A program made the position numbers and the translations under genes. This document shows positions 1 through 60,604 of a stretch of 64,000 nt of DNA, one piece after another. A model generated the notes under the pieces. That model saw only the letters and a program-made list of their open reading frames with translations. It did no database searches and was not told where the DNA came from. This stretch comes from Neocallimastix sp. 'constans' (lineage: Eukaryota). Location: contig JBODTK010000148.1 in assembly GCA_050613775.1 (NCBI GenBank), positions 310,001-374,000 on the forward strand. Reading direction: 5' to 3'. Each line of letters opens with the position of its first letter. Position 1 is the first letter of the stretch.

Positions 1-849
1 ATAATATTCGTTACGAATTTTATTAGTATTATTATAATTTTTATTATTATTTGGTTTATTTTTATTTATATTATTGACATTTGAATCGTTTATAACGGTA
101 GTTTTTGACCTTAAAATTTCGGCTTTTTCAAAAAAGTCATGCCTTTTGTTTAATTCTTTAATAAGATCATCAAAAGTTTTATAACTATAAATTGGTGGTG
201 AATTTATACCAATTCTATCTAATTCATTTACTGCAAATAAAAGTTTAGTTTCCTCATCAAAAGGAATTCTTTTTAATTTATTAGATTCAAATTTATGTCG
301 TTCGAAAAGATTGTTTAATTCATTAATATATTGAATATAGTCATTGTTTATTAACTTAAGATTAATAATTTTATATTCAAGAATATTTAATAGTGCTTGG
401 CCAGATTGATAGAAACGGTTTTTTAATCTATCAATCATACTATAAGCAGTTTTACATCCTCGTAAATATTCTTGGTTTGATTTTTCTAAACTATTTATTA
501 TGATAGATTGAACCGCATTATCCGATTTTATTTGACCTCTGTTCATATTTGAATATTGGATTTCTTTTTCAATATAAATATCTAAATCATTGGCAATGAG
601 ATGCCTCTTTAAAGGCTCATACCAATCTAAGAAATTTTCTTTATTTAATACGAAATCTTTAATTTCAAAAACAGATTTAGTTATATTTCCATAATATTTG
701 TTTATGATAATCCTTTTATCATTGGATTCATCATCTTCATATGAAGAAATCGATTCATCGTCCTTATTTTCAGTTGGATTCGATGAACTCGAACTCTCTT
801 CAATATGATTATTATTGTTATTCTTTCTTTTAGCCATTCTTTGGAACAT
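1..849 (-). CDS. Ty1/Copia gag ORF (N-terminal part, open to the window edge)
   Basis: Manual translation from ATG at 849: MFQRMAKRKNN...LNKENFLDWYEPLKRHLIANDLDIYIE...VQSIIINSL...CKTAYSMIDRLKNRFY... with no stop before position 1. Matches the Copia Gag (UBN2/Retrotran_gag_2) pattern 'NF..W...L' and 'TAY.M...L...F'. Lies directly downstream of an LTR plus PBS. Confidence 0.8.
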   Translation of the reverse strand, partial: MFQRMAKRKNNNNNHIEESSSSSNPTENKDDESISSYEDDESNDKRIIINKYYGNITKSVFEIKDFVLNKENFLDWYEPLKRHLIANDLDIYIEKEIQYSNMNRGQIKSDNAVQSIIINSLEKSNQEYLRGCKTAYSMIDRLKNRFYQSGQALLNILEYKIINLKLINNDYIQYINELNNLFERHKFESNKLKRIPFDEETKLLFAVNELDRIGINSPPIYSYKTFDDLIKELNKRHDFFEKAEILRSKTTVINDSNVNNINKNKPNNNKNYNNTNKIRNEYY

Positions 850-936
850 TAATATAAAATAATTAATTATATTATAAAGTCATTAAAATCATTAAAATGT
901 TTTAAAAATTAAAATTAATAATAGGTCTCTTGATAT

Positions 937-951
937 ATGAGACTCTTAATC
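937..951 (-). promoter_or_regulatory. Primer-binding site of Copia element 1, complementary to the tRNA-Lys(CUU) anticodon arm
   Basis: Minus strand reads GATTAAGAGTCTCAT immediately after the LTR-terminal CA. The plus-strand ATGAGACTCTTAATC equals the anticodon stem-loop of eukaryotic tRNA-Lys(CTT) as recalled. Confidence 0.75.
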
Positions 952-1194
952 TGTTAAGGAGTCAATATAAGATATGATGTGTACACAACAAAATGTATTA
1001 TTATTTAATTAAATTTAATTTATTATTTATTAATTTATATGATTTAAAAAAGTATTTAAAAAGACTCAAAATATTAATTTCATAAAAAAATTTTCTTTTT
1101 ATATTTTACATACAAATTATTACTTAATCAAATATTATAAATATTTATTATACTTTAATGTACAAAAGTTTAAATATTATGTTGAACTTTAACA
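952..1194 (-). mobile_element. 5' LTR of Copia element 1
   Basis: TGTTAAGG...TTTAACA inverted termini, abutting the PBS and gag, loosely similar to the LTR at 1560-1760. The right boundary is inferred from the terminal motif only. Confidence 0.65.
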
Positions 1195-1559
1195 AAATTA
1201 ATACTATTAAGATTCATTTTCTATCGTTAATAATTAATTTTTAATATAAATATTTTTAATATATTAAATTTCATATATTATTTTCTATATTACTACAATT
1301 ATTATAGTAATAATATTTTTATTACTTTTCTATTATTTAATTAATCACTTAATAAAAATGATAAATATTAATACTATTATTATTATTAACTTTTATATTA
1401 AAGAACATAATTACAAAAAATTATATTTTTAATTATTATATTTATCATTACTAGCAAAAATTATAATTTTTAATTATATTATTAGTAAGATATATGAATT
1501 GTTTATATTACATATAAAAATTTATTTTATATTGAAATTTAATATGAGCATTTAAAAAT

Positions 1560-1760
1560 TGTTAAGGCGTTACACAGAATGTTTTGTACACGATATTTAT
1601 ATTATTATATATTTATTTATTAATTAATTATGATTTTATATTTTTTTATTATAAAAGGACTTAATTATTTAATATTATACATTAATTCAATATTTAATCT
1701 TTCACGTACACATTATATCATTAATATACTTTATAATATCTTAATGTATTTTACTTAACA
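1560..1760 (-). mobile_element. 3' LTR (201 bp) of Copia element 2, with adjacent PPT at 1761-1768
   Basis: TGTTAAG...CTTAACA termini. Minus-strand AGGGGGAA polypurine tract directly precedes the LTR and lies downstream of the RNase H region. Confidence 0.8.
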
Positions 1761-1782
1761 TTCCCCCTACATTAAGTATTAT

Positions 1783-1869
<87 letters not shown>

Positions 1870-3909
1870 CTATATATACAAATAATGAAAAATAATAATA
1901 TATTTTTTAACTATATATACAAATAATGAATAATAATAAAAAAAATTTTTTTTTTTAATCTGTAAAAATTAAATTTGTATAATGATTCATTTTTATGACT
2001 GTAATCCTTTTTGTTAGAGGATCAGCTAACATATTTTCTGTATTAATATATTCTAATATAATATTATTGTTATTTATTTCTTCTTATATAAATTTATATC
2101 TTGTATCTATGTGTTTACATCGACCTTTTGAATTTGTATCTTGAGCTATTGCTATACAAGCTTTTTATCTACCATAATTTTAATTTTTATTTTCTTTATT
2201 AAATATTTCTTTAATTAAATTTTTAAACCAAATACCTTGTTTGGCACATTCAGTCAAACTTACGAATTCAACTTCTGCTGTGGATAAAGTTACGCTTTTT
2301 TTGTTGTTGAGATTTCTATGAAATTGGACTATCACCATGTAAGAAAATAAAACCGTTAGTAGACCTTATTGTTTTTTCATCACTTGCAAAATCTAAATCA
2401 GAATATCCAATGAAACTATTTTTTTCATTATAGCATAATGATTTGTTAATTTGTTCCTTTTAAATATTGTAATATGTGCATTAATGATCTATTGTCCGTT
2501 TCGGTTGGATTTTCACAATTTCTTGAAGCTGGGCTTACTACGAAAGATATGTCAGGTCTGGACTTTACTGCTATAGAGCACCAAGTAAAAATTTATATTC
2601 TGCAACATTAACCAAGTATGAATTTTCTCTTTCAAAATCAGTTACATTTCTGAAAGTCGTTTTGACACTCTTTTTTTTATTCATCTTATATTTTTTGATG
2701 ATCTTGTTGATGTAATCTATTTGATTTATTTTGTATCCATCTTTAGTTTTATATATATTGATACCGATTATTTTATTTGTCTTTGATTCTTTTGAAATCT
2801 TATATTTACCTTTTAATTTAATAATATATTAATAATTTAATAAATTATATTAATAATATAATTTATTTCATTACCCTTTCCTGTTATTAAAATGTCATCA
2901 AATATAACGTTAGTAAACAAATTAATTTATTACTTTTATCATATTTTCCAAAAAGATATTTATCTATATTGTATTTTCTAAAACCAATACTAATGAGAAA
3001 ATGTGATATTTCTTTGTACCACATTCTACTAGCTTGTTTTAAACTATAGAGAGCCTTCTTTAATAGCCAATATTTATTTTTATTGTAATTTTTATCACCT
3101 AAAGGTATTTTCATATATATTTTTTCTTCTAAATCCTCATTTAAGTATGTAGCTTTAATATCTAATTGTTTAAGGTTCCATTCATTTAGAGAGGCTATAC
3201 CAACTATTAATCTGAGACTGTCAGGCTTGAATTGCTGGTGAATATGTTTCAATAAAATCTTGCCCATGTATTTGTTGGAAACCACGAGACTAGTCTTGCC
3301 TTTTTTTTTGTTATCATCCTTTTCAGTGAATATCCATTTAGTATCTATTATGTGTACATTTTTTGGAATTTTATTAACTACTTCCATTACATTGTTGTTA
3401 TACATATTTGAAATTTCTTCTTTAATGGCTAATTTCCATTCATTGCTGTCTTCTGAATTGATGGTTTGTTTGTATGTGTTTGGAACGTTCGTAATAATGT
3501 TCATAACTTTGTGTCGTTTGTTTTATTATTTTTTAATTTTTTTTCTCTTAAACTTAATGATTCGTTATCTGAATCACTATTATATTCACTATCTTCGAGA
3601 GAGATCTTTTATTATTTAAATTATTTTTATTGTTATCATTATTGTTTAAATAATTATTATTTAGGTTATTATTGTCAATTAAACTATTTTTATTTAAATT
3701 AGTATTGATTTGTTGATTATTATTAAAAGAATTATTATTTGTATCATTATTATTGTTTGAATTATTATTACTATTATTTAAATTATTATTATTATTATTT
3801 AAATTATTGTTATTTTTTAAAAAAAAAAATACTATTATTATCATAATTATATAAATTATTGTTATTATTTAAATTGTTATCATTAAATAAATTATTATTA
3901 TTCAAATCA

Positions 3910-4183
<274 letters not shown>

Positions 4184-6934
4184 TATCTCTATAATTATTA
4201 TTATTCATATCTCTATAATTATTATTATTCATATTGCTATAATTATTATTATTCATATTGTTATTATTATTTAAAGGATTTTTTAATTGTAAATCATTCA
4301 TAATATCATTAGAATTATTACTTTCCCCTCAATTAGTAAATCCTTGAAATCAATAAGAGAGTCAATATATTTATTGCAAAAGAAAGTAGTATTAATAGTA
4401 CCAAGAGTATCTTCTAAAAAATAAGCATCTCTGGCGGTAATAATAAAATTAGTAGAAACATCTAAAATTTTATAACCAAGAGAATCAGTTAATAACAAAG
4501 GAAAATACCAGGTTTGGAATTATTTTCAAATTTATTGGTTTTATGATTATTATAAAAAGAAGGCTTTACAACCAAAAACTTTAAGATGTGCAATATCAAC
4601 GGGTTTGTTGAAAAATAATTCATTAGGAATTTTATTTTCACTACTCCGATAAGGGTTAATATTATACAAATAAGCAGCACATAAAATAGCGGAATCCCAG
4701 AATTTGAGAGGAAGTTTAGCAGAACTCAATAAAATCGTTGCACAATCGTTTATAGTTTGGTTTAAGCTCTCAGATTAACCATTTTGCTGAGAATTTCCTG
4801 GAGTAGAATGAATAAAATTAATACCTTTAGATTCCATAAATTTAATTAAATTTTTATTAATGTATTCTGTACCATGATCAGATTTAATATTAATAATTTT
4901 GAAAGGAGTAGTATTAGAAATAAAGTTATAAAATTTAATAAAAGTATCAGGAATATCTAACCCAACATTTTCTGGAAAAACCATCAAGAAAAGTGAAATA
5001 GTAATTAAAATCATTAAAAGAATTTTCTAGTTTTCCTATAACATCGGTGTGAACTAATTCCATTGGTATTTCAGATTTATTAAGAGTGTTATAAAAAGGT
5101 TTTTTCTTTAACTTGCTGATTTTGCATTGATGACAATTTTTAGAGATATAAAGTTTCAAATGTTCTATAACAAAATTTTGTATATTTTTATTAACGTAAT
5201 GACCTGATCTCGGGTGCCATAAAACAGTATCTATATGAAAAACGTGATTTTTTGAAGTAATTATTATTAATTGATATGGTATCAAAAAAAAATAAATTTT
5301 CGTCATCTGCATAAATATTTGCTATTAATTTATTATTTTTTATTATCTGTAATCTGTCCTTATTATTAATATTTTCCATAATTAATTTCAACACAGAGAA
5401 TGTGTTGAAATTAAATTATTTTTGATATTTGACGAGTAATAAACATTAGATAAAATAAATTTATTATTTTTAAATTAGCCATTATAAGTTCCTATATGTT
5501 TTATTTCATCTAGGGTTAAATCCACTTGGGTAAATAATATTTTTATTGTTAACGTAATTAATGTCTTTTAAATTATTTAATTCATTTGTTGGATTGATTC
5601 AGTCCCACTATTAATAATACTGCCTTTGAATATCTCATCCACAAATTCTCAAAATCAGTAATAAATATCCTGATTTCTTCTCTATTATAAACTAGTTTCT
5701 TTATTATAACTTCCCTTCGTTATATTAGCAAAACTAGATATTACAAATATATAAAACCTTCTTTTTTTTAATTTAAAAAAAATACATTAATACTAATATA
5801 ATAATAATTAAAAAATTATTTTATATATGTGTGTAAAAATAAAACACATTAATACTAATATATTATAAAAATTATATAAAATTATAATAAAATTTTAAAA
5901 AAAAAAATTATATATATTATTATAAAATTATATAAATATATATATTTATGTTAGTAACAATTAATAAGTTATATAAAATAAGATTATAAAAATTTATTTA
6001 AAAAATTATTATTAAAAATTATTTATAAAAAAATAATAAAAAATAAAAAAAAAAATAAAAAAAACTTATTATAAATAATTATCATAAAAATTATAAAGAA
6101 ATAAAAAAAAATTATAAAAAAATTATAAAAAAATAATAAAATAATAATAAAAAAAAAATTACTGAAAATTATCAATAATGATTAGTAATAATTATAAAAA
6201 AAATAACTATTGCTGAAATTTTTTAATAATGATTAATTATAGTTTTAAAAAATTATTATATAAAAATATAAAAATTAAAAAAAAAATTATTATAAAAAAG
6301 TATTATATAAAATCAAAAAATTAAAAATTAAAAAAAAATATATTATATATAATTATCATAAATAATTATTATAAAAAAAGATTATAAAAAATATAATTTT
6401 GTTAGTAATGAATAATAAAAGTTATTAAAAAAAAATAATTACTATTGAAATTTTTATTTTTTAATAATGAATAAAAAAGAGCTATTACTGAAATTTTTTA
6501 ATAATTATTAAGAATAATTTTAAAAAAAATAAATATTACTGATATTTTTTAATGATAATTAATAACAGTTTTAAAAAAAAAATTATTTTAAAAAAATTAT
6601 AAAAAAAATTTTTATAAAAAAATATTAAAAAAATAATAAATTATAATAAAAATAACAAATTATAAAAATAATAAATTATAATAAAAATAACAAATTATAA
6701 AAATAATAAATTATAATAAAAATAACAAATTATAAAAATAACAAATTATTATAAAAAGTATTAAAACAAATATTATAAAAATAACAAATTATAATAAAAA
6801 TAACAAATTATAAAAATAACAAATTATTATAAAAAGTATTAAAACAAATATTATAAAAATAACAAATTATAAAAATAACAAATGATTATACAAAGTATTA
6901 AAACAAATATATATAAATTATTATAAAAAGTTAT

Positions 6935-10135: not shown

Positions 10136-10869
10136 TTATATATCTTGAATTATATGTGATGGGCATAAATTTTCATAACAAATACGATAAACGGCAGTAA
10201 ATAATGGAAATTCTTCAGTACAATTATGTTGAGTTAAAATTTGATAAATTTCTTTCGAAGTAATGGTACCTTGTAATTTTTGACCATTTAACATCTCTTT
10301 TTCTAAGTCATCGAACGACTATTTTTTTTTTTTTTATTTTAATTAAATATTATATAAATAGGTATATTATATAAATAAGATATTTTTAATAACAATTATA
10401 TAAATTAATAAAACATAAATTATGAATATATTAACTAATTTTACTTATTTAAAAAAAAAAATTATTACCTTTCCAGTTAATACATGAGCTTCAGCTAATT
10501 TTCTATGACGTCCACCATAGCATGTAGTAACTACATCAGCAACACCACAACTTTCAAAGAAAGTTTCATTCTTAATTCCAGTGTAGAACATATGTGAAAA
10601 TTTCTTCATTTCTGCTATGCCAATTCTTATTATTGCTGCCTTTGTATTACTACCCATTCTATAAAAATTTTAAACAATATTAAAATATCATAATTAATAA
10701 TTAATTCAATTATAAAGTTCATTCATTATATTTAAATAATAATATAAATAAGCTTACTTTAATCCATCTACAAATCCAGCAGCTAAGGCAACAACATTTC
10801 TATATAAAATTATTTAAATAATTATTTTTTTTTTAATACAACGATTATACTATTTTTTCTTAACTATTC

Positions 10870-10902
<33 letters not shown>

Positions 10903-12046
10903 TTGTTTTTGATTTTGTTTCAATTATATTATTTTATAATCTTTTTTTTTTGGCTTTTGTTTTGTATTAATTATTTTACTTTAAAATTTTCTTTAAAAAT
11001 AATATTCTTTTTAAAATTTTCTTTAAAAATAATATTCTTTTTTTATTGTTATCTATTTTGTTTTAATTATAATATTTTAAAATCTTTTTTGGTTTTTTGT
11101 TATGTTTTAATTATTTTTTTAAAAACTTTTTTAAAAATATTTTTTTTTATAATATATCTAAAAGTATTCTTAATGAAATTTTTTTTTTCTCTTTTCTCTT
11201 TTAAATATTATTATATCTTTAAATATTCTTTAATTATTTAATTATAACTAGATTTCAAAATATTTTTTAAAAGCAATATTAACAAAATAAAATATAAATT
11301 CTTTTTTAAAAACAACAAAAAAAAAAACTTACTTCAAAGCACCACATAATTCAACACCTGAAACATCTTGAACAGCATTAACTCTGAAATAACTAGTATT
11401 AAATAGTTTTTTAAATATTTCTCCATTTTGTGGATCGCTATAACCAATGGTCGTTTCACAAAATTGTTCAATAGCTACTTCACTAGCAACATTAGCACCC
11501 ATTAAAACACTAACATCAATTGATAATGATTTTCTGATTTCTTCTGAAATTAAAAGTAAACCACCTTTTGAAATATCAATTCCTTTAATTAATGAAATAG
11601 CTCTACAATCTTCCCGTAGTTTTCCTCTTATTTTTTCACATGTAGATTTTACAAATTGATGTGGTATAACAAAAACTAAAATTGTAGCATTTTCAACACA
11701 TTCTACAATATCTGAGCATGCAACAACATTTGGTGGAATTTTTATACCTGGAAGATATTTAACATTTTCATGACAAGTATTAATAATTTCTGTTAACTTG
11801 CGTCCATTGATATATTCTTCAAATACCCACATTTTAACAGTACTACTAAATTCGGGATGTGTTAAAACATTTTTTCCTATAATCTTTGATATAGCAGAAC
11901 CCCTACAATAAATCATTATATTTAATAATTAAAAATTTTAATACTAAAATACAAAAAATTAAATATTATATATTTATATTTAATAAGTACCAATTTCCAC
12001 TACCAATAATGCAGACTTTCTCCTTTTCACCACTTATTCCTGGCAT
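10136..12046 (-). CDS. GPD1: Glycerol-3-phosphate dehydrogenase (NAD+); 5 exons: 12046-11991, 11902-11333, 10799-10758, 10658-10469, 10318-10136
   Basis: Spliced protein [25 protein letters not shown]...MWVFEE...HENVKYLPG...PHQF...[11 protein letters not shown]...[33 protein letters not shown]...[18 protein letters not shown]...NGQKLQG...FPLFTAVY. All introns are GT-AG and preserve frame. Confidence 0.97.
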
Positions 12047-22223: not shown

Positions 22224-22839
22224 CTACCATCCTTTAACTTTCATAATACAATAGTAAATATAGGTCAATAAGATCCAGATAATAAATGCAAAGCATACTA
22301 GACACATTATAGACGTTTCTATTGAAAATCCTGGATTAGGTTGTATAATATAATACTAAAAAAAAAGATATTATAAAAAAATAAAAAAAAAAAATAATAA
22401 TAATATTAATAATTTTTATTAATGTTAAGTAAAATTAATAGCAATATTATTATATATATAATTATTTACAATCATTTCTGTTGATAAGACACAATAATAA
22501 TAATCAACATCAATTCTAAAATGATATAATTCTTCTCCCTGTAACATTATCGATAGTACATTTAAAGAAAGACATATAAATAAGATATTATTATAATAAA
22601 TAATTATATATATATGAATATTAATATATATGAGAAAAATTTTTTTTATATTTTTATTATTAAAATTTTTTTTTTTTTAATTTATGAATTTAATCCATAG
22701 AATTTTATGGATTATATAATAATTATTATTTTGTTACAATAATAGATAATAATAATAAAATTATTTTTATTACCCTCCATACTATTTTATCTTTATTTGG
22801 ATCATAGGTGTGTTTATCTTCATTACCACAATCTATTAA

Positions 22840-22899
<60 letters not shown>

Positions 22900-23603
22900 A
22901 TAATATAATATAAGAAAAAAAAAATATGAAATAAAAATGAAAAATAGAATATGATATAAAATATAAATAAAAATAAAAATAGATGATAATAAAATTTATG
23001 ATGATGAAATTTATATTACATATAATTAATATAATAAACTTATAATTATAAATTTACCTGAAATACAGTAATCCGTTCTATTATTTAATTCTGTAATATT
23101 AAATGGAATATCTAATGGTATAGTTTCCTTGTTATATTCTTTAACGAAAAATTTTAATTGGTAATTATTGGTTTGATATAATTTTATGACCTTTTTTTTT
23201 TTTTTTTTTTTTTATTTAAAAAAAAAAATAAAATAAAATATTAATAAGATATAAAATTTTAAAAAAATTATAATAAAAAATTAAAAAAAAAAAAAAAAAA
23301 AAAAAAATTAAAAAAATAAGTTAATAATTACATTTTCAATACAATCCGAGTTTTTTATCAACATAGAACGTTTCTGATCATTCGTACATCCACATTCTTG
23401 TCGATTTGATTTTCCTTCACATTGCTTATATTTACCTGAATTTTTGGATACTTTAAACCTATTCTTTATTCTTTCTTTTCCAGGATGGGCATGATAAAAA
23501 GTATCCTCAATTGGAACATCCGTTCCAAGATAAGAAGGTGGTCTATAATTATACTTTGTTATTATTATTATTATTATTGTTATGTTTAATTTTATATATA
23601 TAC

Positions 23604-23634
<31 letters not shown>

Positions 23635-23974
23635 TGGAATTTTTAAAAATATTTTAAAATTTTTATGATAAATATATATTTTAAAAAAATTTTTTTTTTG
23701 TTAATTATTTTTATATTCATATAAAAAATAGAGTCAATAATAATAATAATAATAATAATAGTAATAATAATAATATAAAACTTACAGGGAGAGTCATCAC
23801 TTTTTTATTATAAGCATCTCCTGATCCATGGAGAATATCTTGATCTTCTAATTCAAAATCAGGAACAATTATACGAGTGGGTGGACATTGATTAAATATG
23901 TATTTAATGGGCAATTCATTTTTACAGAAAATAGAGTTATGAACTGGGAAAACATTTAAAATATTCATTCCCTA

Positions 23975-24014
<40 letters not shown>

Positions 24015-24847
24015 TTTAAAAAAATTTTTATAATAATTGTATTATTAATTATATTTAATTATTATTTTTTGTTATAAAAATTTATAATAAATTATATTTA
24101 TATATTTATTTATTATTTGAATAATGAATAATCTATTGATATAGAATTATTAAATAATTGTATATATATATATATATATTTTATCTTCTCTCTCTCTCTA
24201 TCTTTTTTTTTTTTTTATTCATTTTATATATATTAATAGTTAGTAATTCATTACCTTTATTCCTACATCTTTAATTTGCAAATTTAATGCTAATTCTGAG
24301 TTACCATAGTAGTTATTATTAGTATAGGATATAATATTTGGGTTCGAAAAGGTCATATAAAATTGAGAAGTGGATTGATAATGATTAGCGGCCTTTATAT
24401 TTGAACTATCCGAATTTACATTTATTGTAATATTTAATTCCCCATTATAATCTAAATAATATATATCTGGTATGTTCGTCATTTCTAAAGAATTCCAATG
24501 GCAGTCATCCATTTTTAATGCCCAGGATTGTTCCTTTAATATAATAAAATTTGTTTATTTTTTAAGGTTTTCATTAAATACCATTTTGAATAAATATATT
24601 AAAATTTTTATTTTTTTATTTTTTTTTCTTGTAATATAATTTTTATTTTTCTTTTATTTCTATTTCTAATATATATATATATATATATTTTTTTTTTAAA
24701 AAAGTTCTTTTTTAAATATATAATTACCATAGTACTGAAATCCAGTAAAGATTTATTGTTAGAATAAACATTACGACTTTTAATAATACTGAAATCTTGT
24801 TTTTCCATTTGATATATATTTCCATTCAATTTATATATTTTTATCTA

Positions 24848-24885
<38 letters not shown>

Positions 24886-25222
24886 AGTTTTATAAATATA
24901 AAAACATATATATATAAATAAATAAATATATATTTAATTATTTTAAAAAGTGAATAATTTCTACATACATCAGCTTTCTGTCCATAAACAGCTACTATTT
25001 CTCCAATAATATAATTATTTATATCCATATCTCCCATAACTATTAAATCGTTAATATCTAATTGTGATTATACATTTTTATCAATAAATATTGATATTAT
25101 TAATATTTATATAATTATATTATTTATTTTATTTTATTTTATTTCAAAGTTTTTTTTTTTTTTTATGAATATATTATATTGAATAATACTAATAATACTA
25201 ATACTACTACTACTACTACTGC

Positions 25223-25258
<36 letters not shown>

Positions 25259-27589
25259 TGATAATAATAAATGAATAAATTTTAAAAAAGCTTACTATCA
25301 TAGATAAAGAAATTTCTTTCAGCGTTTAATGAGATTGTTGCTGTATCCCCAGGTTGAAGTTCAGGGGTAGAGGTATCCGTTAAGTATACCTTGAAATAGA
25401 CTAAACTGTCATCCACAATGGTTCCTCTAAGATCGTAAATATCCCAAGTTGTAAATATGGATTTATGAGGAATACCTTTCTTCGTATCCATCCATTGACT
25501 TAATGGAAATATTAATTCGGCGATGGCTTCCCGATTACTTCTAATTTTTCGAATAATGAATGATCCTTCATTAACTATGACTGATTTATTAATATCTCCT
25601 TTGGTCCAAACTCTTCCTCCTTCATTACCTAAAATTTATAATAATAATGATAATTAATTAATAATAATATTTAAAAAATATTAAAATAATATTAAATAAT
25701 AATTACAGTAAGGAAAGAGAAGAAAATAAAAAAATATTATTATTAGTTATATTTTTAAATTAAATTGATTGATCATACAAAAAAAAAAAAAAAAAAGACT
25801 GTCTATTTATCTATTTTTTTTTTACCTATTAAAGTTAATGTAACTATAGACTCCTGTACTAAAGGCTTAACGTAAGAATTAAAATTAATGTAATCTGCCG
25901 ATGAAAATTCCAAATTATGATGGGCATGTATTGTAATTTCTAATGGATCCACACGAGATTCATGAGTAAAACTGCCTTTCGGGATAACCCTCAACATATT
26001 TTTATTATTACTAACATCATAGATGAGAAGTCGATCGTTCGTATCCTTCAGATTAATGATGTAACCAATGTAAGCATCATGAAATGGTGAATCCTTACCA
26101 TAGGCATATAACCAAATATCTAGCTCATTACGTAAAATAGGTACTAATGGGAAAGGTTCATCAAATTCTAAAGCGTTAAAATTTGAATATTCAATAATAC
26201 TTTTAGTTGGAATAGTACCACTGAAAAATATTTGATTTAGAGGGTAGAGTGAGTTCATTTGATCATCAAGATTAGAATCGAGGGAACCGAGGGAATAATC
26301 AAGAATAGAGAGGGTTCCATGCTCATTTATCATAAATTTAATTAATTGATTTGGATCGAGATGAGCCCAAGGTAACTGTAAGAAACGAGTAATAGAAGTA
26401 TTACCATAGTATACGTTTAATTGATTGGTAATGAAATAGACAGAAGAGCTCTGATAACTTGATTTAAATTCCGTAAAATATTCAGGTTGTTGAGAAGAAT
26501 TATTTATGCTGGGTTGAAGAAGTCTTGATTTTAATTTGAAGGTGTAACCACCATCATTTGAATGATAAATCGAGGTACCATAAATAAAGATATCAAAATT
26601 ATTTTCATGAAGAGCCATTCCATAAAAATACTCATCCTCCGGAAGATTGAATTCCATTGAATAGTCATTAGTTTTATCAAAAATATCGGTGGTATGAATT
26701 ACTACGGCACAATTCCTATAAACCTGGTGATAGCCAGGTTTATCTACCGGTATACCAATAAAGTAGATATTTTGATTGTTAAATCGAACCGCTGAAATAA
26801 ACTCTGTTCGAGGATCCTTATGTTGAATGGCGAGAGTCGTAAGGATATCATCAATGGTCGTGGCACGCCAAAGACCTTTCACATAATAGTTTTCTAAACT
26901 ATAAATAATTCTATTTTTTACACCAGTTGCAGGAGAGGTTGAGAAGATCGTATAAACATAAGTGGAATTTGACGTAATGGTATTGACCGTAGCCATCAAT
27001 TTAATATTTTCAAATCCTAATTTTGCTACTGTTGGTTGTAATTCATTGATACGATGAAATTTCGAAGGTAGATCGCCAGTAGGTCTAGTAAAGTCAGTAA
27101 ACTCAGATGGTAGAAAAGTGTAGAAAACCCCGGTATTAGTATGAACGATAAGGTAACGTTGTAATAGTAAGACATTTAAATATTCTTGAGTATTACATGT
27201 TACTTTTGAGATTCCTTGACAAGTTGTAAAAATATCTGGATCAACCGTTTTATTAGTTTTTCTTAGATTTAAAATTTTATAAGATTCCATAAAATCATTA
27301 GTGAGCGCCAATACTGAACGAGGACCACTGAGATTATCATCATTGGAATTTACATTAGTTAATTTTAAATTTAATATTTTTAAATTTGGATTAGAGGCAC
27401 TATGAAAATCATCAATACTACTAATTCTAAAAATCTTATTATCCATCTTAATATTTCCTGTAGCGGTTGAATTATCATATTTCTATTATATATATATGTG
27501 TTATATTATAAAATGAATTATATATATATATATATATTTTTTTTAAAATTTTTTTATATATTAATATTTCAATAATAATAAAATAATAA

Positions 27590-27646
<57 letters not shown>

Positions 27647-27727
27647 GAAAATAAAAATAAAAATTAATATAAAGAAGAGATTTTATATAATTTTTTTTAT
27701 TTATATCACCATATATAAATTAGTATT

Positions 27728-27760
<33 letters not shown>

Positions 27761-28469
27761 AAAAATAAAAGATAATAATGATGATAATGATAATGATAAT
27801 ATACAATTTTATCGGTGATATCCAATCCTAAATCTAATTCATAAGCCGTAGGAATATGTAAAATACGTTTTTCATCTCTAATACCACAACCAAGAATATT
27901 TGATCCTAAGGATTTAATTTCAATTTGAAGAGGATTAATGCTATATAAATAGGATTTATTCAATTTAATTATCCATTCAAAATTTTCATTCTTTATTAAA
28001 AAAAAAAAAATAAAAAAATAAAAATAAAAATAAAAATAAAAAAAAAAAAAAAGGAAATTTTTTTGATAATTGTATTATTTGAATTGAAAATTTTGAAAAA
28101 GATAATATATATAAGAAGATTAAGAAAAAAAAAATTAATATATATATATATATGATATAAAAATAATTTATATATATTATATATAAATCAATAAAATAAA
28201 AAAAAAATTAAATATGAATATATAGTTATACCAATTTATTTTCTGATTCAATAACATAGGCATGAGTACTATTCGAAATTTGAACGGTAGGATGTTCTCC
28301 AATTAATGAAAACGATTGAGTGGCTTCTTTGGTCATTTGAATGTTATTTGGAAAATGAGAATTAATTACTTTAATATGAAGTATAGGTGAAATACCATTG
28401 AAATATCTTTTGTGGAAATCTTCTTTACTGTATGGATTCCAATCAATGTCCATTGAATAGCGATAACAA

Positions 28470-28503
<34 letters not shown>

Positions 28504-29708
28504 TTTTTTTTTATATTTTTTAGAATTAATATTATTTATTATTATTATTTTATTATTTATCATCATTATTATTTATTAGTATTGTCATTAAAATTATAAT
28601 TATCATTGTTTTGCATTTCCATTGTTACCATAAATTAGAGTAATATTATGCATAAATATATATATTATATAAAGTTAATTTTAAATAATATGAATATACA
28701 AATTAAAAATAGAAAAAGTGATTAATAATCTCATTAATCTTATTTATAATTAATGTCTTTATTTTATTTTATTTTATTTTATTTTATTTTTTTTTTTAAT
28801 TTTTAATTTTTTTTTTATTAATTATGTTTGTTATTAAAAGTAAAAATAAAAAGTAGGAATAATATATTAATATATTTATTATTATTATTATTATTATTTT
28901 TTTTTTTTTTTTTTTTCTACAAAAGTACTTTACATATTGAAGGTTCTACTGTTATTCTTATTTTTTTAGTGGAAGCAGGTAATAAACCATCCGATTCAAT
29001 TTTATTATCCTCATTCAAATAAAATCTAGTTTTAGTAATATAGAGAGCAATTGTTTTTTCTCCTGGTTCACTATATATAGTTGAAAATCGAATATCATCA
29101 TTCAATAAATCTTGACTATTTCCTATCCATAAATTTTCTAAATCCTCTTCTTTAATATTATCCTCGTCAAATATAACACAAATACTATAGATATTACCAT
29201 CATTTGGTATATAAGAATGTTCTAATGATATAGAAATCGCTTTTTTTTTTTTTTTTTTTTTTTTTGATTATAATAATTTTTTATAGGTATATATTTATAA
29301 TAATGTTTATAATAATGATAGATTTAATGAATGTTAAGTAAATATATATATTAATATATAATAGTAGCAATTATATAAATTAGAGGAATAGAACATTAAT
29401 ATGTATATAAAAGGTGTATTAAAAAAAAAAATTATGAATAAAAATTTTCGATTGTATTTATTAGAAAATTTTCTTTTCTATTTTTTCTTTCACTTCTTTT
29501 TTTTTTTTAATTTTTTTCTTTTTTATTTCGAATTTATTTCGAATTTATACATACAGTCATGTACCGTAATATGATCACTACTTGTGGTAACTTGAAATCG
29601 TAATAGAGGAACATCTTGTCCATACACAACATTATCCTTATATTGAAAAAAAATATTGTTTAGTAGGAATATGAAAAATAGTGACAGATAGTTTGATTTT
29701 ATATTCAT
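22224..29708 (-). CDS. CatSper auxiliary subunit beta/gamma-like type-I membrane protein, ~1386 aa; 15 exons: 29708-29555, 29239-28934, 28470-28232, 27990-27805, 27482-25826, 25628-25296, 25057-24969, 24844-24728, 24533-24255, 23971-23786, 23553-23332, 23190-23058, 22832-22774, 22538-22470, 22355-22224
   Basis: GT-AG introns join into one 4161-nt frame. Hydrophobic N-terminal leader, Asp-box-like SNDGGYTF, then LP-YNYRPPSYLGTDVPIEDTFYHAHPGK..SKNSGKYKQCEGKSNRQECGCTNDQKRS..SDCIENV...ITELNNR...YDP...GEELYHFRI...C, a single C-terminal TM helix (SIMCLVCFAFIIWILLTYIYYCIM) and a short tail. The motif order matches CATSPERB as recalled (NYRPPS..FYHADP..SKKTGKFKQC..REECNCTKDQK..SDC..TEVN.R..GSELFHFRV). 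Confidence 0.85.
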
Positions 29709-30827
29709 TTTTTTTTTTTTTTTTTTCTCTATGTATTTTATATAAATATTAGAAAATAAAAATAAAGATTCAATATAGCAAGAAGTGAAAAATAGATATC
29801 TTAATGTTTATCCTTTATGAAAGAAAAAAAGATAATAATATAAAAAAATATATATATACTATTTCGTATGTATAATAATTTTTGAATATCAATATATATA
29901 TATATATTATATATATATATAATTTTTTTTTTTTTTTTTTTTTTTTTTATTATTAAATAATAATTATAATAATTATTGATAATTAGTTTAATATTATTTT
30001 ATATATATATATATTTTATATTTTATGATCATTTTAATATGTATTATGTATTATCTTATTTTTTTTATTATTATTATTTCTTTTTTTTTTTTTTTTTTTT
30101 TTTTTAAATAAATATTATTATAATATTTAATTTTTACTGCGAATAAAATTGTTTGTTGTTATTTTTTTTGTTTTTAATTTTTTATTATTATAATTATTAT
30201 TTATTTATTTTTTTTTTTTTATTTTTTTAAAAATTTTGTTGATTTTAAAGTTTAAATTCACCATAGTAAAAATTATTTAATAATAATATTAATATAATAA
30301 TATAATAACAATTATTATAAAAAAGAAAAAATCAATTTTTATTATAAATTTAAATTTGTAAAACCATAATTTATAATTAAATATAAGAATTTTATTTTAT
30401 TTTATTTTTTTTTTTTTTATTTGAAATTAAATGTTTAAATACATTAATACATTTATGTTCTATATTATTGTTATATACTATTATTATTATTATTTTTTTT
30501 AATAATAATATTGACTTTACTATAATGAACAGTATTTTTTTTGATATTAATGTAGAAGAAAATGTAATAATTAAATAATTTTTACATTTAATATATATAT
30601 TTTATGATTAGAGAAAGCAATACAACAATATGAAAGAAACATAAAGTAGACACATGCTCCATATTATCCAAAATATAAATTAATGATAATAATAATTATA
30701 ATTATAATAATAATAATAATTATAATAATAATTATAATAATAGTAATAATAATAATAATAATAATTATAATAATAATAATAAAATAATAATAATATAATA
30801 ATAATATAATAATAAAACAAAAATAAT

Positions 30828-31223
30828 GGGAGAGTTGCATTTCCCCAAATTGCATTTCGCCAGGTTGCATTTCGACAAGTGGCGTAGTATTAAAATGTTG
30901 CATTTCCCCAAGTTGCATTTCCCCAAGTTGCTTTTCGCCAGGTTGCATTTCGATAAATAGAGTATTGATATAAATAAATGAATAAATAAATAAATATTAA
31001 TTCAAAATATATTTTTTTTAAAATTGTTTTTATGTGATATTAATAATAATTAATTTTATTTATTGATTTATTTATTTATTTAATAATTTTCAATTTGGCG
31101 AAATGCAACTTGGCGAATTGCAATTTGGCGAAATGCCACATTTTTTTAATACGCCACATGCTTTCAAAAAAATTGGTGAAATGCAATCTGGCGAAATGCA
31201 ATTTAGCGAAATGCCCCACACCC
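30828..31223. mobile_element. Non-autonomous foldback/Mutator-type element (MITE) with arrayed 15-bp subterminal repeats and a 9-bp TSD
   Basis: Starts GGG and ends CCC. Left arm has tandem TTGCATTTC(G/C)CCA(A/G)G units; right arm has their reverse complement. AAAAATAAT flanks both sides (30819-30827 and 31224-31232). Confidence 0.8.
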
Positions 31224-31267
31224 AAAAATAATAATACAATAATAATAAAATACTAATAGGGTTAGGG

Positions 31268-32068: not shown

Positions 32069-33033
32069 TAAAATTAATGCAAAACAAAACTACATGCATA
32101 TTTGACGGTTATAGAAAATTTACTTTTATGATAAACAATCATAAAAATTAACTTTAAGCGCATCGTTTATTCCAAAGATATGGTAAAGAACACATTGTTA
32201 GTGTCCATGAATTGATAAAACTGGGAAGAACATTATTAGTAGCAACGAATTAATAAAAAAAAAAAAAAATAAAAAAAAACTGGTGATTATAGTAATTACG
32301 GGAACCAACTAATAATGATATGGTTTAGTTGACTCTGAAGGAATCTATCTAGGAGGGGACGTTTGTTGGAACTATTTCATTTAAATGAATACAATGAAAT
32401 TATTATCTCAACTTCTAATTATGTTAATGAAATGGAATGTTCTACAAATAAAAATATCTTTTTTACAGCGAAGAAAAAGGATGAAGAAAGTAAAAGAATA
32501 ATACGGCATCCACATTTTAGACCATGACTTCTTAATAATAATCCAAACAACAATTATTGTCTCAGTTTATCCTTAACAAAAAAATAATAAAAAGACCTTT
32601 AAGAAAATAATTTCCACATTCCTTTATTCTAAGAATTTCTATGTAGAAAGATTCATCATAAAATTTAGAAATATTAATTTTTTTTTAAAAAATATTTGTT
32701 GCTTCTATTATTAAATTCAGTCATCCTACCCCATTCTCTCTCTTTCACTGCTTAAAGTTAATTTTCGTTCTTACTATTATAATTCCATCGGTTTACTCAA
32801 CAAAATTCGATATTAAAGCAATCGTATCTCAATACCGTCTTGGACAAGAAAATCTACACTACTATTCTTCTAGGAGATACTTACTTTAGTAAGGGGTAAT
32901 TGGAGGTTGAATTAAGCCTTATATGGATTAAAACCATCTGTCAGGCAATGGAACAAAGATCATAACAATATTCCTTCAGGACAATGGCTACGAAGAAACT
33001 TATTTCCTAAAAATGTATATTCATGAAAAACAG

Positions 33034-33066
<33 letters not shown>

Positions 33067-34030
33067 AAAAGTTACTTGTATAATTGGATTAAGCGTTGAC
33101 GATGCGGTATGGTCATCACAAGGAACAACAACGAAATCAAAAAAATATCACTTTAATCATTAAAGGAAAATTGTAGTAATTTCAAAGTTTGAACCAATAG
33201 ACTTTATTCTTGGAATTAAAGCGGGAAAACGTTAACAATACATATGTAAATCTCATAAGAAAGCTTGATCAACAATATATTACAGAGATTTCAATATCAA
33301 ACACACCAGGAAAACATACACTCCGTGTATGAACGATATTATTAAAAGTGAGAATACAAAACCGTTTGATAAGACCGTATACAAAAGTTCAATAGGTATG
33401 CCGATCTATTTATCAAAGTGCCTTAGACCAGTCATATTATTTGCAGTACATAAAGCCACAAGAAATTCCAAAAATCCAACTGTTTCAGATTGGATTAAGA
33501 TAACACACATTTTGAAATATATTAATACAACTAAAAATTAAAAAATACATTATAACAGAAAAGGAAAAATAATTGCTTATACTGAGTCTAATTGCTTTGG
33601 AAATATAAAGTATAGAAAATCCACATCAGGCAACAGCATTTTAATGGGTAACAGTCCAATATATTGGGCTTCCAAGAAACAAAAACAACTACTGCCACCT
33701 CCATCACTGAAGCTGAATATATTATCACTTCTGAATGCACTAAGAAGGTCTTTTGGATCGGAAACATTTTACAGGAATTATTTAATTTCCATAATCCAAT
33801 TAAAATTAACACTGACCCAAAAGAATTTTAAACCCATAACTAGCAAAACCCATATTGAGAAAGACGAAATTAATACAAAATTAAAAATAGATCGATATTA
33901 AATTTTTCTTCAATAAAGACAATATCAATAAAGGTAAAATAGCCTTAGATTATATTGAATCAAAAAGAAATGCTAGCTGATATTCTAACAAAGAATAAAA
34001 ATAGTAAAGATGCAGATAACTTTGCAAACA
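31700..34030 (+). mobile_element. Highly degenerate Ty1/Copia remnant (RT-RNase H recognisable)
   Basis: ALYGLK (~32916), VDD (~33095), YKSSIG...LRP.I.FAV, GNSPIYWASKKQK, TEAEY, MLADILTK (~33970). Many stops and frameshifts. Left boundary approximate. Confidence 0.8.
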
Positions 34031-36888: not shown

Positions 36889-39760
36889 TAATAATAATAA
36901 TAAATAATAATAAATTTTTTTTATTATTGTAAGATTTAAACTTTTTAATTAAATCTTTCGGAAAAAATTTTAAAATAAAACAAAATAAAAAAAAAAAAGG
37001 GATCATCCATTTTAAATAATATATTATATATTGATAGGAAAAAATTTTTTTTTCTGTTTTTTTCTATTTTTTAATAATGTATACATTAGTGGCTTTAATT
37101 AACGTAATTTACTCTATACAAAATAACTAATTAATAAATTCAATAAATTTTACATATTATAAAAGCTTAATTTTTTATTTTATTTTATTTTATTAATAAT
37201 TAATTATATATAATAAATTTATATTAAAATAAATTTAATTTATATATTTTTATATTAAAATGAATATAATCTATATATTTTTATATTAAAATAAATATAA
37301 TCTATATATTTTATTTTAATACTAAATGTAGAAATGAATTTCTCTATTATTTATAATAATCATAGAAATAATTTGATAAAAACTGTGATAATATTTATAA
37401 ATATTATAAATATAATCTATATTTATAATATCTCTATATATAATTTTTTATTTGTTTTAATTTTTTTTTTTTTGTTATTAATAATTATATATATAATAGT
37501 GATTGTAAAAGTTAAAAAATGAAAAAATAAAAAAAAAAAATTTTTATCTCCATTTTTATTTATTTGGAAGATACTTTAAATTTTTAAGCTTATTAGAATT
37601 ATAATATAATTATGGAATTGTTCAAAGAACTAATTCTATTTATTTTAAACTTATAAAGAATAAGAATATTATATTATATATGGAATAGTTCTGAATAATT
37701 AACAGAAAATGACACTATACAAAAAAAAAAAAAAAGGAATAATATAAAATTGGTTAAAATCAAATCAAACGCTTTTATATATAATTAATAAATATTAAAT
37801 ATTAAATATTATTTAGTAATATATATATATTTATTTATTTTTTAATTGATTTGAAATAAAAATATTAAATTTTAATATTATATGATATAACGGAAATAAC
37901 TATACAAACATATCAGACATATTATATATAATATATATTAGATAAAGATTGTAATAAAAAAAATTTTTTTTTTTAAATAAAAATATTCATTTATATATTA
38001 AGTATATTTATTAATTTATATTATGTAGAATTATTAATGAATAATTACTTTTTTTATACTATGAAATGGTTATATATAAAAAAGAAAAAAAAAAACAAAA
38101 CTTCTTTTGAATATAGAATAGTACATATTAAATTATATATGGTTCTTAATAGCTAAAAAAAAAAAAAAGGAAGATGAATAGAAAGAACAAAAATAATTAT
38201 TAAAGCTAATAAATTAAACGAGAAAATTATTAAAGCTTATAAATCAATAAATAAATTTATTATTATTTTATTGCCATAAAATAATTTTTTTTTTTTTTGA
38301 AATTTTTTTTTGTTATTTATTCCTCATTCTATTAAGAAGGTATTTGTATCATCAATCAAAGAAAAAGCGGTATATAAATATATAAAACTATAAAAATATT
38401 TCAATATAAATATAAATATTTCAATATAAATATAAATATAAATGTATAAACATTTGAATATAAATTTATATATATAACGAATGATAATTTTAATCCTAAT
38501 TTATATCCTAATATATTATAAATTTATTATATTTATTAAATTTAAATATTAATTTTTAAAATTTTTTTTTTTAAAATAAATATAAATAGAGTTTTTAATA
38601 TAATATCTTTTTTTATTTTCTATTTTATTTTATTATAATAATTTATATTTTATTTTATATTTATTATTTTTAATATAAAAAAAATTTTTTTTTTCAGTAA
38701 TCATCAATATATGTTATTTTATTTTTTATTTTTTATTTTTATACTTTTAATATATGTACACTTTATAGTGAATTTATTGATAATTTAAATAAATAACTTA
38801 TTAATTATTTTTTATTTTTATCTTTATTTTTATTTTTTTTAAAAAAAAGAAGGAAAAATATAAATAAATAAAAAATAAATTCCTTTTTTTTTTTATTCTT
38901 ATTTTATTTTTTAATTTTATTTTTTTTTTTTGAATTATTTTTATATTTCTTTTCTTTCTTTTCTTTTTTTATTAAAATTTTTATATTGTTCTGAGGTACT
39001 ACTGGAGAAATACAAAAAAAAAAAGGTTCGCCAAATAGTTATATAAATATATGAAAAGTAAATTAAAACAAGAATTATCAAACATATACTGGTTTATTTT
39101 GGATATATGAGAGAAAGCAGTTCAACTCAATAAAGTATAATAATAAGTAAAAATAAAACAATTAACAATCACTATTAAAAGAAAGGTTAGAATTTACAGT
39201 TTATAGGAAATTTTGAAATTACAATAATAGAAATAATAATTGAAATAATAATAATAAAAAAAAAGGTTAATAATATTATTCCTATATTACAAGAAGAAAA
39301 TTTCAAAACCATACCGAATATTACGAACAATACAGATAAGAAAAAAAAAAAAAAAAATTTAAAAACAGATAATTACAAGAACAAGTATATATATATTTAT
39401 TAACGAGCAGGAAATTTATTATTGAAATAAAAGTAATTTATTTAAGGGCAAAAAAAAAAAAAAAAGTAAAAAATAAAAAAAAAAAACTATTAAAATAACA
39501 TTTTTAATAAATATTATTAGAAGAAAATTTGAATAAGTGGTATCAAAATATCTCAAATATAATTCGTACTATATAAATAAAGGGAAATTATATAAAAATA
39601 ATTATAATTTTATTATTTTTTTATACTTATTTAAGAAAACTTTGTATATATAAAAATCTTAACCGAATAAATTAAATTAAGTTAAATTGAACTCTATATT
39701 TTTATTTAAGGGAAAAAAAATAAAAAAAAAAAAAAAAAAAAAAGAGAGAGAGAGAGAGAA

Positions 39761-40600
39761 ATGATTTATTGTAAATTTAATGTTATATTTTTAATAATAT
39801 TATTTTGTTCCATTATAAAAGTTCGTTCTGAAGAAGAGGATGATGATAAAGATAAAACTACTATCTATGTTACAGTGACAGCTAATTCTACAACAGAAGA
39901 AGCGACGCCTACGAAAGATGAAACTATTCCAACTTCCACGGTTGAAATCGAAAAACTACCTGAATATATAAAATTTGAAGATGCACTAAAACAAACCGAA
40001 GATCAATGTATGAAACATGTTTATGTTGTTTCTCTTAATCTTTTCCATGCTAATCAAATTGGTAATGTTGACTGTGGCAATGGTCATTTCAGTTCTTTAG
40101 AAAGTTTGAGAAAAGCAAAACCCTGTAAAAATAATCCAAAACTTCAATATGCTATTGAATATATGGATGCTAATATTCGTCTTATGTGCCATACCTATTC
40201 TACTGGTACTTATACTTATGAAGGTAAACAAGAGAAGAAACTTTGCCCAATAATTCAACTTATGAAAACAAATTATACAAAATATGAAGAAAATCTATTT
40301 GATGGATGTAAGAAAAACGATACCTGTATTGAAGATATTCTTAAGGATTATAAGAGTATAGAAAGAATTCGTACTAAACTTAAGGAAATTGATAATGATG
40401 ATGAAAAAGTTTCCTATAAAATTAATGGAGGTAATGAAACCGTTTTCTTTAAGATGAATATTACCGATTCCATTTTTAAACAACTTGAATCCAAATGTCC
40501 AACCTATATAAATATTACAAGTAGTGCTTTATCGGTGACTATTTCATTTAGTACTCTTATTGCTTTTTCTATATTTATGATTTTTATTGGTAGAATGTAA
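39761..40600 (+). CDS. Secreted Cys-rich surface protein, probably GPI- or tail-anchored, function unknown (279 aa, single exon)
   Basis: Signal-peptide-like N-terminus, acidic and Thr-rich linker, a domain with 8 Cys, C-terminal SSA followed by a hydrophobic tail. GC is raised against the flanks. Confidence 0.85.
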   Translation: MIYCKFNVIFLIILFCSIIKVRSEEEDDDKDKTTIYVTVTANSTTEEATPTKDETIPTSTVEIEKLPEYIKFEDALKQTEDQCMKHVYVVSLNLFHANQIGNVDCGNGHFSSLESLRKAKPCKNNPKLQYAIEYMDANIRLMCHTYSTGTYTYEGKQEKKLCPIIQLMKTNYTKYEENLFDGCKKNDTCIEDILKDYKSIERIRTKLKEIDNDDEKVSYKINGGNETVFFKMNITDSIFKQLESKCPTYINITSSALSVTISFSTLIAFSIFMIFIGRM

Positions 40601-56653: not shown

Positions 56654-57566
56654 ATGTAATGAAAAAAAATTAACTCGTTTCTCTCGAGCAAACATCAAAA
56701 ATTATTACTTAACGCGTCATATATTATTAAAAATAAATCAAACGCGCACTAGCAATTATTTTTATTTATAAAAATTTTATTATCGATAAAAAGAAAAAAA
56801 ATTTTTTTTTATTTTAATTATATAACAAATTTATAATACTATAAAAGAATTTTTTTTTTATTTTTTAAATAGTATTCAGTAGTAAATAATTATAAAACAA
56901 GTAAATAATAATTATTTATTTTATATATTTTTTTAGTAAATAATAATAATACAAAACAATTAAAATATTTCAAATTATTATCAATAAACGCAAAAATCTT
57001 ATTTTTTTTTTTTATTTTTTTTTTTTATTTAATTATAAAAAAAAAAAAGAAAAGATTATTATTATTTATATGAAACGCGCATATTTGAAATAATCAATAA
57101 AATCTATTATTTTTATATACAAAAAAAAAAAAAAATTTTTTTTTTATTTATTTAGTAGAAATCAAATTTAAAAAGAAACAGAAAAAAATATTTTTTAAAA
57201 TAATTTTTTTTATAAATTTTTTATTTTTATTTTTATTTTATTACAAACTTTTTTTCTTTTTTATTTAAATTTTTTTTTTATTATTTTTACAATATGATCA
57301 GTTAATAAATTAATACTCGTAAAAAATATAATAAAAAAAAAAAAAAAAAAAAGTAAAATTAGTAAAATAAATAATCTTAATAATAATAATAATAAAAATA
57401 AAAAAAAATTAAAATATATTTTAAATCTATTAAAAAAAAAAAAAAAATATTTAAATAAATAAAATTTAAATTTTATTTAAACATATAAGAAAAAAGAATA
57501 CCAAGTTTTATTTTTATTTTTATTTTTATTTTTATTTTTATTTTTTTTTTTTTTTTCATCTTGGAT

Positions 57567-60563: not shown

Positions 60564-60602
<39 letters not shown>
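59566..60602 (+). mobile_element. Second 5'-truncated LINE (diverged family member), degenerate, with poly(A) tail
   Basis: LVKNIPTLSHYSWTKK, CPTYSPCC..HWILLC, LLLGG, FVGLAEFLT, KSVDVV all match the preceding copy. Tail at 60567-60602. Confidence 0.9.

Positions 60603-60604
<2 letters not shown>

What the first reader, a model, noticed from the sequence alone, without database searches (positions are those of the whole stretch)
22224..29708. Intact CatSper beta/gamma-like auxiliary subunit gene in a probable anaerobic gut fungus
Seen: 15 GT-AG exons splice into one uninterrupted ~1386-aa protein with a leader, a large ectodomain, a Cys-rich NYRPPS...KQC...ECGCT...SDC...GEELYHFR block and one C-terminal TM helix. 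The ORF track shows only disconnected pieces. Known: that motif series characterises auxiliary subunits of CatSper, the sperm-flagellum Ca2+ channel, and CatSper components have been reported in a few flagellated non-animals such as Allomyces. Inference: this organism may use a CatSper-like complex in its zoospore flagella for motility or chemotaxis. The protein is longer than mammalian beta/gamma. Its N-terminus (YCYRY...QSFSLIGEHP...W) looks gamma/epsilon-like while the C-terminus looks beta-like, so it may represent an ancestral subunit type.
Basis: partly seen in the sequence, partly recalled or inferred. Interest (0 to 1): 0.9.

Follow-up and report, generated by a model that had tools for sequence, protein, structure and literature searches.

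The report
Gut-fungus CatSper-beta, long ancestral form
This is a real 15-exon gene of a Neocallimastix gut fungus for the beta helper subunit of the CatSper "sperm" calcium channel, already listed as such in a 2026 survey, and it likely works in the flagella of the swimming spores; it carries two extra modules that most non-animal relatives share and the animal versions lack.

Summary
Observation confirmed. Fifteen minus-strand exons with 14 GT-AG introns give 1386 aa and one C-terminal helix. A public protein from 4.4-kb contigs equals residues 28-1386 across all 14 joints. It is CatSper beta over its whole length, not a beta/gamma mosaic: Pfam CATSPERB_C 1e-41 with no gamma, delta or epsilon family; a 30-protein non-animal profile scores mouse beta 3e-95, epsilon 2e-13, gamma 0.13. 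Its shorter public model, ORY86484 of Neocallimastix californiae (identical where it aligns), already stands under CATSPERB in the supplement of PMC13358043; the same table lists pore, gamma and delta/epsilon candidates for gut fungi. What this work adds: the public model lacks 243 residues, and the extra length is an N-terminal PKD domain plus a third head repeat, found in most non-animal betas and in none of 16 animal-clade ones. The N-terminal half ties between mouse beta and epsilon by fold, so 'ancestral architecture' has some support. A role in zoospore flagella is inferred; pore genes could not be checked here.

The parts
29555..29708 (-). Exon 1, aa 1-51: start codon, hydrophobic leader (about aa 7-21), start of PKD-like domain
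   Evidence: leader hydropathy; aa 28 onward in P0003
28934..29239 (-). Exon 2, aa 52-153: PKD-like Ig domain (aa 41-147); missing from the public NCBI model
   Evidence: orthologue's residues 33-157 match PKD models at TM 0.60-0.66
28232..28470 (-). Exon 3, aa 154-233: CatSper N-terminal domain, first part
   Evidence: weak CATSPERB_1st hit E 0.018-0.063
27805..27990 (-). Exon 4, aa 234-295: N-terminal domain, second part
25826..27482 (-). Exon 5, aa 296-847: beta-propeller and first head repeat
   Evidence: CATSPERB_2nd E 2.6e-4, below cut-off; folds
25296..25628 (-). Exon 6, aa 848-958: second head repeat and start of the third
   Evidence: CATSPERB_head E 0.025
24969..25057 (-). Exon 7, aa 959-988: core of the third (extra) head repeat; skipped in the public NCBI model
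   Evidence: repeat 2 vs 3: HHalign probability 94.7%
24728..24844 (-). Exon 8, aa 989-1027: end of third head repeat
24255..24533 (-). Exon 9, aa 1028-1120: Ig-like domain
23786..23971 (-). Exon 10, aa 1121-1182: end of Ig-like domain, start of C-terminal domain
23332..23553 (-). Exon 11, aa 1183-1256: Cys-rich beta-specific block
   Evidence: CATSPERB_C E 3.7e-28 for this exon alone
23058..23190 (-). Exon 12, aa 1257-1300: stem
22774..22832 (-). Exon 13, aa 1301-1320: stem
22470..22538 (-). Exon 14, aa 1321-1343: stem with conserved Cys1336; skipped in the public NCBI model
   Evidence: Cys in 89 of 89 aligned rows
22224..22355 (-). Exon 15, aa 1344-1386 and stop: single transmembrane helix and a tail of a few residues

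Best explanation
The gene encodes the CatSper beta orthologue of a Neocallimastix gut fungus, a single-pass membrane protein that likely forms one quarter of the extracellular canopy of a CatSper-type calcium channel in the zoospore flagella. Shown: gene structure, splicing in public contigs, beta identity, domain order (leader, PKD, N-terminal domain, propeller, three head repeats, Ig-like, Cys-rich stem, one helix). Inferred from the mouse complex: its Ig-like domain would join those of gamma and delta/epsilon-type subunits, its helix would pair with one pore subunit, and the canopy would be needed to assemble the channel and send it to the flagellum, where calcium entry would tune the beat during the short swim towards plant material. 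The gene is most simply inherited vertically; the long form is likely ancestral and was trimmed on the animal stem.
For: Pfam CATSPERB_C 143 bits against a cut-off of 27; no gamma/delta/epsilon family up to E 10. Non-animal-only profile aligns with mouse beta 154-1061 (E 3e-95), far above epsilon, delta, gamma. Models of both halves (pLDDT 81.5 and 87.2) rank mouse beta first in Foldseek; C-half VIA Z 21.9, rmsd 3.3, 587 aligned. Eight ectodomain cysteines are kept in 8 or 9 of 9 animal-type betas. The supplement of PMC13358043 lists this protein under CATSPERB and accessions of the N. lanati series under CATSPER1-4, G and D/E (my count of columns). In Rhizoclosmatium the D/E-column gene rises from 0.18 TPM in germlings to 54.7 in ciliating sporangia. 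Canopy function in mouse: PMC12851028 passages. Zoospore chemotaxis and asexual cycle: PMC7609409 passages. Fungal monophyly is not rejected (p-AU 0.60).
Against: No genome is held, so pore genes were not checked here. The paper's pore columns are loose: 42 fungal proteins with 335 helices under CATSPER1, 11 with 163 under CATSPER4, more than six per protein, so they include other channels. No stage-resolved expression, localisation or current exists for this gene in what I saw; the expression figures are for other subunits in another fungus. The gut-fungal branch is long and compositionally biased, and the free tree did not group it with other fungi. The N-half fold ties between epsilon (Z 19.8) and beta (Z 19.2), and that model is of the 64%-identical Anaeromyces orthologue.
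Confidence: 0.8

Rival explanations
1. Orphaned or repurposed beta: the protein is kept as a surface protein (adhesion, sensing) without a working CatSper pore.
For: Pore subunits unverified here; published pore columns are mixed; long branch; no channel gene seen among longer frames elsewhere in the first 57 kb of the window (by eye).
Against: Stem, Ig-like domain, cysteines and helix are all kept; gamma, delta/epsilon and pore-column entries exist for the sister species.
Confidence: 0.13
2. Undifferentiated or mosaic ancestral subunit with a gamma/epsilon-type N-terminus and a beta-type C-terminus, standing in for several canopy subunits.
For: The non-animal profile aligns to mouse epsilon from the N-terminal domain on, whereas its mouse beta alignment starts later; N-half fold tie with epsilon, with the epsilon match starting at model residue 39.
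Against: The propeller-plus-head stretch scores 88.8 bits with beta against 14.9 for the overlapping epsilon stretch; identity 17-18% to beta, 11-12% to epsilon, and only beta aligns through the head; the N-terminal domain profile hits 9 of 13 animal betas; separate G and D/E entries are listed for gut fungi.
Confidence: 0.05
3. Horizontal transfer or contamination from the animal host.
For: The free tree left the gut-fungal pair in an open fork with animals, Chromosphaera and Diphylleia.
Against: 14 AT-rich introns, GC3 21%; 64% identical orthologue in Anaeromyces; the two extra modules are absent from animal betas; fungal clade tree scores 3.65 log units higher.
Confidence: 0.01

Closest known systems
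ORY86484.1 (N. californiae) and KAG4108770.1 (N. lanati), listed as CATSPERB in PMC13358043 Supplementary File 1; UniRef100_A0A1Y2FT53
   Same: 100% and 99.7% identical over 1143 aligned residues; same gene or its immediate orthologue
   Different: The public models lack aa 1-159, 928-988 and 1321-1343 (243 aa: leader, PKD domain, most of the third head repeat, a stem exon with a conserved Cys)
Mouse CATSPERB (PDB 7EEB chain E, 9UBW chain E)
   Same: N-terminal domain, propeller, head, Ig-like, Cys-rich stem, one C-terminal helix in the same order; best hit by sequence, profile and fold
   Different: About 280 aa shorter: no PKD domain, two head repeats instead of three; 15-22% identity in structural alignments
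Non-animal CatSper beta of Allomyces, Rozella, Polyrhizophydium, Sorochytrium, Chromosphaera, Diphylleia, Gefionella, Cyanophora, Carpediemonas
   Same: 1280-1430 aa, PKD domain before the N-terminal domain, long head
   Different: About 15-25% identity; the gut-fungal PKD domain is too diverged for Pfam to name
Mouse CATSPERE (7EEB chain H)
   Same: N-half superposes as well as on beta, possibly including the first N-terminal domain
   Different: Match ends before the head; profile E 2e-13 against 3e-95 for beta

Membership tests
CATSPERB | CATSPERB_C domain above Pfam's curated cut-off | tested here: met
   143.1 bits against 27, E 1.3e-41
CATSPERB | Best match among the four canopy paralogues is beta | tested here: met
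   phmmer finds only beta; non-animal profile 3e-95 vs 2e-13, 1e-9, 0.13; Foldseek ranks beta first for both halves
CATSPERB | N-terminal domain, propeller, head, Ig-like, stem in order | tested here: met
   Single-sequence Pfam hits for the first three are below cut-off; order shown by profile and folds
CATSPERB | Type I membrane protein: leader and one C-terminal helix | tested here: met
   One hydrophobic peak aa 1350-1385, helix in model; leader judged by hydropathy only
CATSPERB | Conserved ectodomain cysteines | tested here: met
   Cys 1038, 1136, 1149, 1227, 1236, 1238, 1253, 1336 kept in 8 or 9 of 9 animal-type rows
CatSper channel complex | Four pore subunits and the other canopy subunits in the same genome | not testable with these tools
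   No genome held; only the published table for sister species, whose pore columns are mixed
CatSper channel complex | Flagellar localisation and calcium current | not testable with these tools
   Needs experiments
CATSPERG / CATSPERD / CATSPERE | Match to their Pfam families | tested here: not met
   No such family for the 1359-aa protein up to E 10, though these families hit other proteins in the same library
CATSPERE | Epsilon-like N-terminal half by fold | tested here: inconclusive
   Z 19.8, rmsd 4.1, 514 aligned for epsilon vs Z 19.2, rmsd 5.5, 610 aligned for beta; residue-level alignment not shown
PKD domain (PF00801/PF18911) | PKD-type Ig fold at aa 41-147 | tested here: met
   Weak on the window's own sequence: no Pfam hit, 10.1 bits to a homologue profile against a best of 7.9 in 200 shuffles; clear for the Anaeromyces orthologue (16.9 bits; TM 0.60-0.66 to PKD models) and 14 of 30 non-animal homologues

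The most novel reading that the evidence does not exclude
Gut-fungal zoospores, described as asexual, carry a complete CatSper channel whose beta subunit keeps the original eukaryotic canopy design: an epsilon-like two-domain N-terminus (PKD plus N-terminal domain) and three head repeats, both trimmed when animals arose. The channel steers chemotaxis to plant sugars and phenolics, so CatSper began as a general flagellar sensing channel and its canopy can be studied outside sperm.
Probability: 0.25. Interest if true: 0.7.

Novelty: already known. Interest (0 to 1): 0.3.

Why it matters
The gene itself is catalogued, so the headline is not new. The useful residue is twofold. The public model misses 243 residues, including the leader and two whole modules. 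And the comparison shows that the mammalian beta is the reduced form: relatives from fungi to glaucophytes and metamonads carry a PKD domain and a third head repeat, which I did not find described (searches; most subscription papers, including the original structure paper and Cai et al. 2014, were not searchable). The canopy's function is an open question in sperm (PMC12851028, passages), and mammalian CatSper is not functionally expressed in heterologous systems (PMC5362262, passages), so a culturable flagellated fungus would be a possible test bed.

Tried and rejected
Genome search for pore subunits, sNHE and sAC: no genome held, and no pore query came from any tool. Two first exon models had boundary slips at exons 6 and 7. 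A random-splicing control was badly built (1 valid chain of 20000 draws) and says nothing. Gamma chain did not appear in the VIA lists, which show one chain per entry, so that is no exclusion. PHROGs gave nothing for the head repeats (0 families for the window protein; best E 0.047 among 30). Repeat 1 against repeats 2 and 3 is weak by HHalign (22% and 48%). The careful tree did not finish; the quick tree was used. Cai et al. 2014 is not held. No complex was folded, for lack of partner sequences. Earlier scan notes: none for this genome or sequence.

Full report
Observation. The decisive check is external: a JGI/IMG protein of 1359 aa on contigs of at most 4400 nt is identical to aa 28-1386 and crosses 14 of 14 junctions. 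I infer it comes from spliced RNA. No reads were laid, so level, strand and stage of expression are unknown. The first 27 codons rest on the Anaeromyces orthologue, which starts at the same place.

Organism and prior annotation. The largest exon found two longer proteins among 5162 candidates, from Neocallimastix lanati and Anaeromyces robustus. The cluster holds ORY86484.1 of N. californiae, which UniRef names automatically after the CatSper beta C-terminal domain; it is 100% identical over its 1143 residues but lacks aa 1-159, 928-988 and 1321-1343. Both Neocallimastix accessions stand in the CATSPERB column of Supplementary File 1 of PMC13358043. That paper was the only one holding both 'CatSper' and 'Neocallimastig'; its text mentions CatSper only as not universally retained in flagellated fungi.

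Which subunit. Exon 11 alone hits CATSPERB_C at 3.7e-28; exons 5 and 6 hit the beta propeller and head families weakly; of 14 exons scanned (exon 13 is too short) none hit a gamma, delta or epsilon family, nor did the near-full protein. Against solved structures only beta is found by single sequence. A profile of 30 non-animal relatives gives beta 3e-95, epsilon 2e-13, delta 1e-9, gamma 0.13. Models of the Anaeromyces N-terminal 986 aa and of the window protein's aa 584-1386 are confident; Foldseek ranks beta first for both (7e-25 against 5e-22 for epsilon and 5e-12 for gamma in the N-half; 1e-37 against 2e-15 in the C-half). But that region hits 9 of 13 animal betas, and only beta aligns through the head. 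I read it as a shared domain in which mouse beta has drifted, not as a mosaic.

Why it is long. A search of 1.84 billion representatives gave 268 hits at E up to 0.001, of which the best 150 were returned. Named ones include Rozella, Allomyces, Blastocladiella, chytrids, Gonapodya, Chromosphaera, Diphylleia, Gefionella, Cyanophora and Carpediemonas (1135-1652 aa) and three animals (1069-1147 aa) (20 ids looked up). Two modules explain the difference. First, a PKD domain before the N-terminal domain: Pfam finds it in 14 of 30 non-animal proteins and in 0 of 10 short animal-type ones; in the window protein it is weak by sequence and clear in the orthologue. Second, a third head repeat, a duplicate of the second (HHalign 94.7%). 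I took the 64 stored proteins of 850 aa or more left after dropping near-duplicates; 60 entered a tree. In the 16-member clade that holds the three named animals, 0 of 16 have the PKD domain and 14 of 14 measurable have 19 residues or fewer between the second repeat and the Ig-like domain. Of the other 44, 28 have the PKD domain (15 of these helped build the profile; many of the rest are cut at the N-terminus) and 32 of 34 measurable have 72 residues or more there. As Chromosphaera has the long form, I infer loss of both modules on the animal stem; 13 of the 16 clade members are unnamed and early-branching animals were not identified. The epsilon match covers 514 residues within chain range 50-613 starting at model residue 39, so at least 21 come from epsilon's first 70 residues; the PKD domain may correspond to epsilon's first N-terminal domain. 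Unrelated propellers also start near residue 40, so part of this may be a single strand that closes the propeller.

Origin. The quick tree left the gut-fungal pair on a long, compositionally biased branch in an open fork, apart from eight other fungi; forcing fungi together gave a higher likelihood and was not rejected (p-AU 0.60). With 14 native-looking introns and orthologues in other gut fungi, vertical descent is simplest.

Mechanism. In mouse the four single-pass subunits form a canopy, each paired with one pore subunit, joined by their Ig-like domains and needed for assembly and flagellar delivery; beta mediates contacts within channel dimers (PMC12851028, passages). The fungal protein keeps every part used for this. 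Partners could not be sought here. Counting columns by eye in rows 6-17 of the paper's accession sheet, accessions of the same KAG408-KAG410 series as the N. lanati beta appear under CATSPER1 (five), CATSPER2 (two), CATSPER3, CATSPER4, CATSPERG and CATSPERD/E (two); that they belong to N. lanati is my inference from the series, and the pore columns are mixed with larger channels. In Rhizoclosmatium the D/E- and G-column genes are low in germlings and high in sporangia (0.18 to 54.7 and 0.08 to 1.65 TPM). Gut-fungal zoospores are the only motile stage, reproduce asexually and swim towards sugars and phenolic acids (PMC7609409, passages). A flagellar calcium-channel role is therefore likely (0.8); a role in chemotaxis specifically is a guess.

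What I saw of each paper. PMC13358043: passages, Methods, supplementary file 1 parts 1, 10-13, 77 and searches, a search of file 2; its presence/absence figure and remaining rows were not visible. bioRxiv 230292: passages reporting CATSPERB, G and D transcripts in Allomyces; its supplements were not seen. PMC5362262: passages. PMC7609409 and PMC12851028: passages. Cai et al. 2014: only as cited.

Verdict. Real gene, correct model, CatSper beta, already catalogued. The long architecture is a modest, apparently undescribed addition shared by most non-animal betas rather than a feature of this fungus. Interest 0.3.

Noticed in passing
window 24728-25900 (head repeats; model m59b31a5ec785 residues 156-342): The head repeats superpose weakly on a chain of a phage portal-tail complex (9efk_M, Z 9.1, rmsd 2.9, 93 residues; also 8ck1_A, Z 7.7). 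Propeller plus these repeats may share a fold with podophage tail proteins; PHROGs found no sequence link.
   Followed up: partly
PMC13358043 Supplementary File 1, CATSPERD/E column: Two accessions of the N. lanati series (KAG4095578, KAG4103147) are listed, which would fill a four-part canopy although delta was described as late-arising (PMC5362262). Column read by eye.
   Followed up: no
window 10139-11928, minus strand: Spliced NAD-dependent glycerol-3-phosphate dehydrogenase gene (PF01210, E 1e-38).
   Followed up: partly
window 1-5400 minus; 32300-33900 plus; 57481-59403 plus and 59525-61506: Broken Copia-type retroelement pieces (RVT_2, E 9e-33) and a LINE-type reverse transcriptase frame (RVT_1, E 2e-18) with related fragments.
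   Followed up: partly
window 39710-40600 plus and 55655-56653 plus: Two frames with Cys-containing regions and hydrophobic C-termini, one with a long Ser/Asn/Gly tract; they look like anchored surface proteins; no Pfam hit.
   Followed up: partly
window 30805-31252: Short GC-richer tandem units (about 15 nt, reading as a five-residue repeat) in two oppositely oriented groups, possibly the ends of a non-autonomous element.
   Followed up: no
P0018 and P0091: Two public beta models carry an unrelated domain (cyclin in Gonapodya, ureidoglycolate lyase in Cyanophora), probably gene-model fusions.
   Followed up: no
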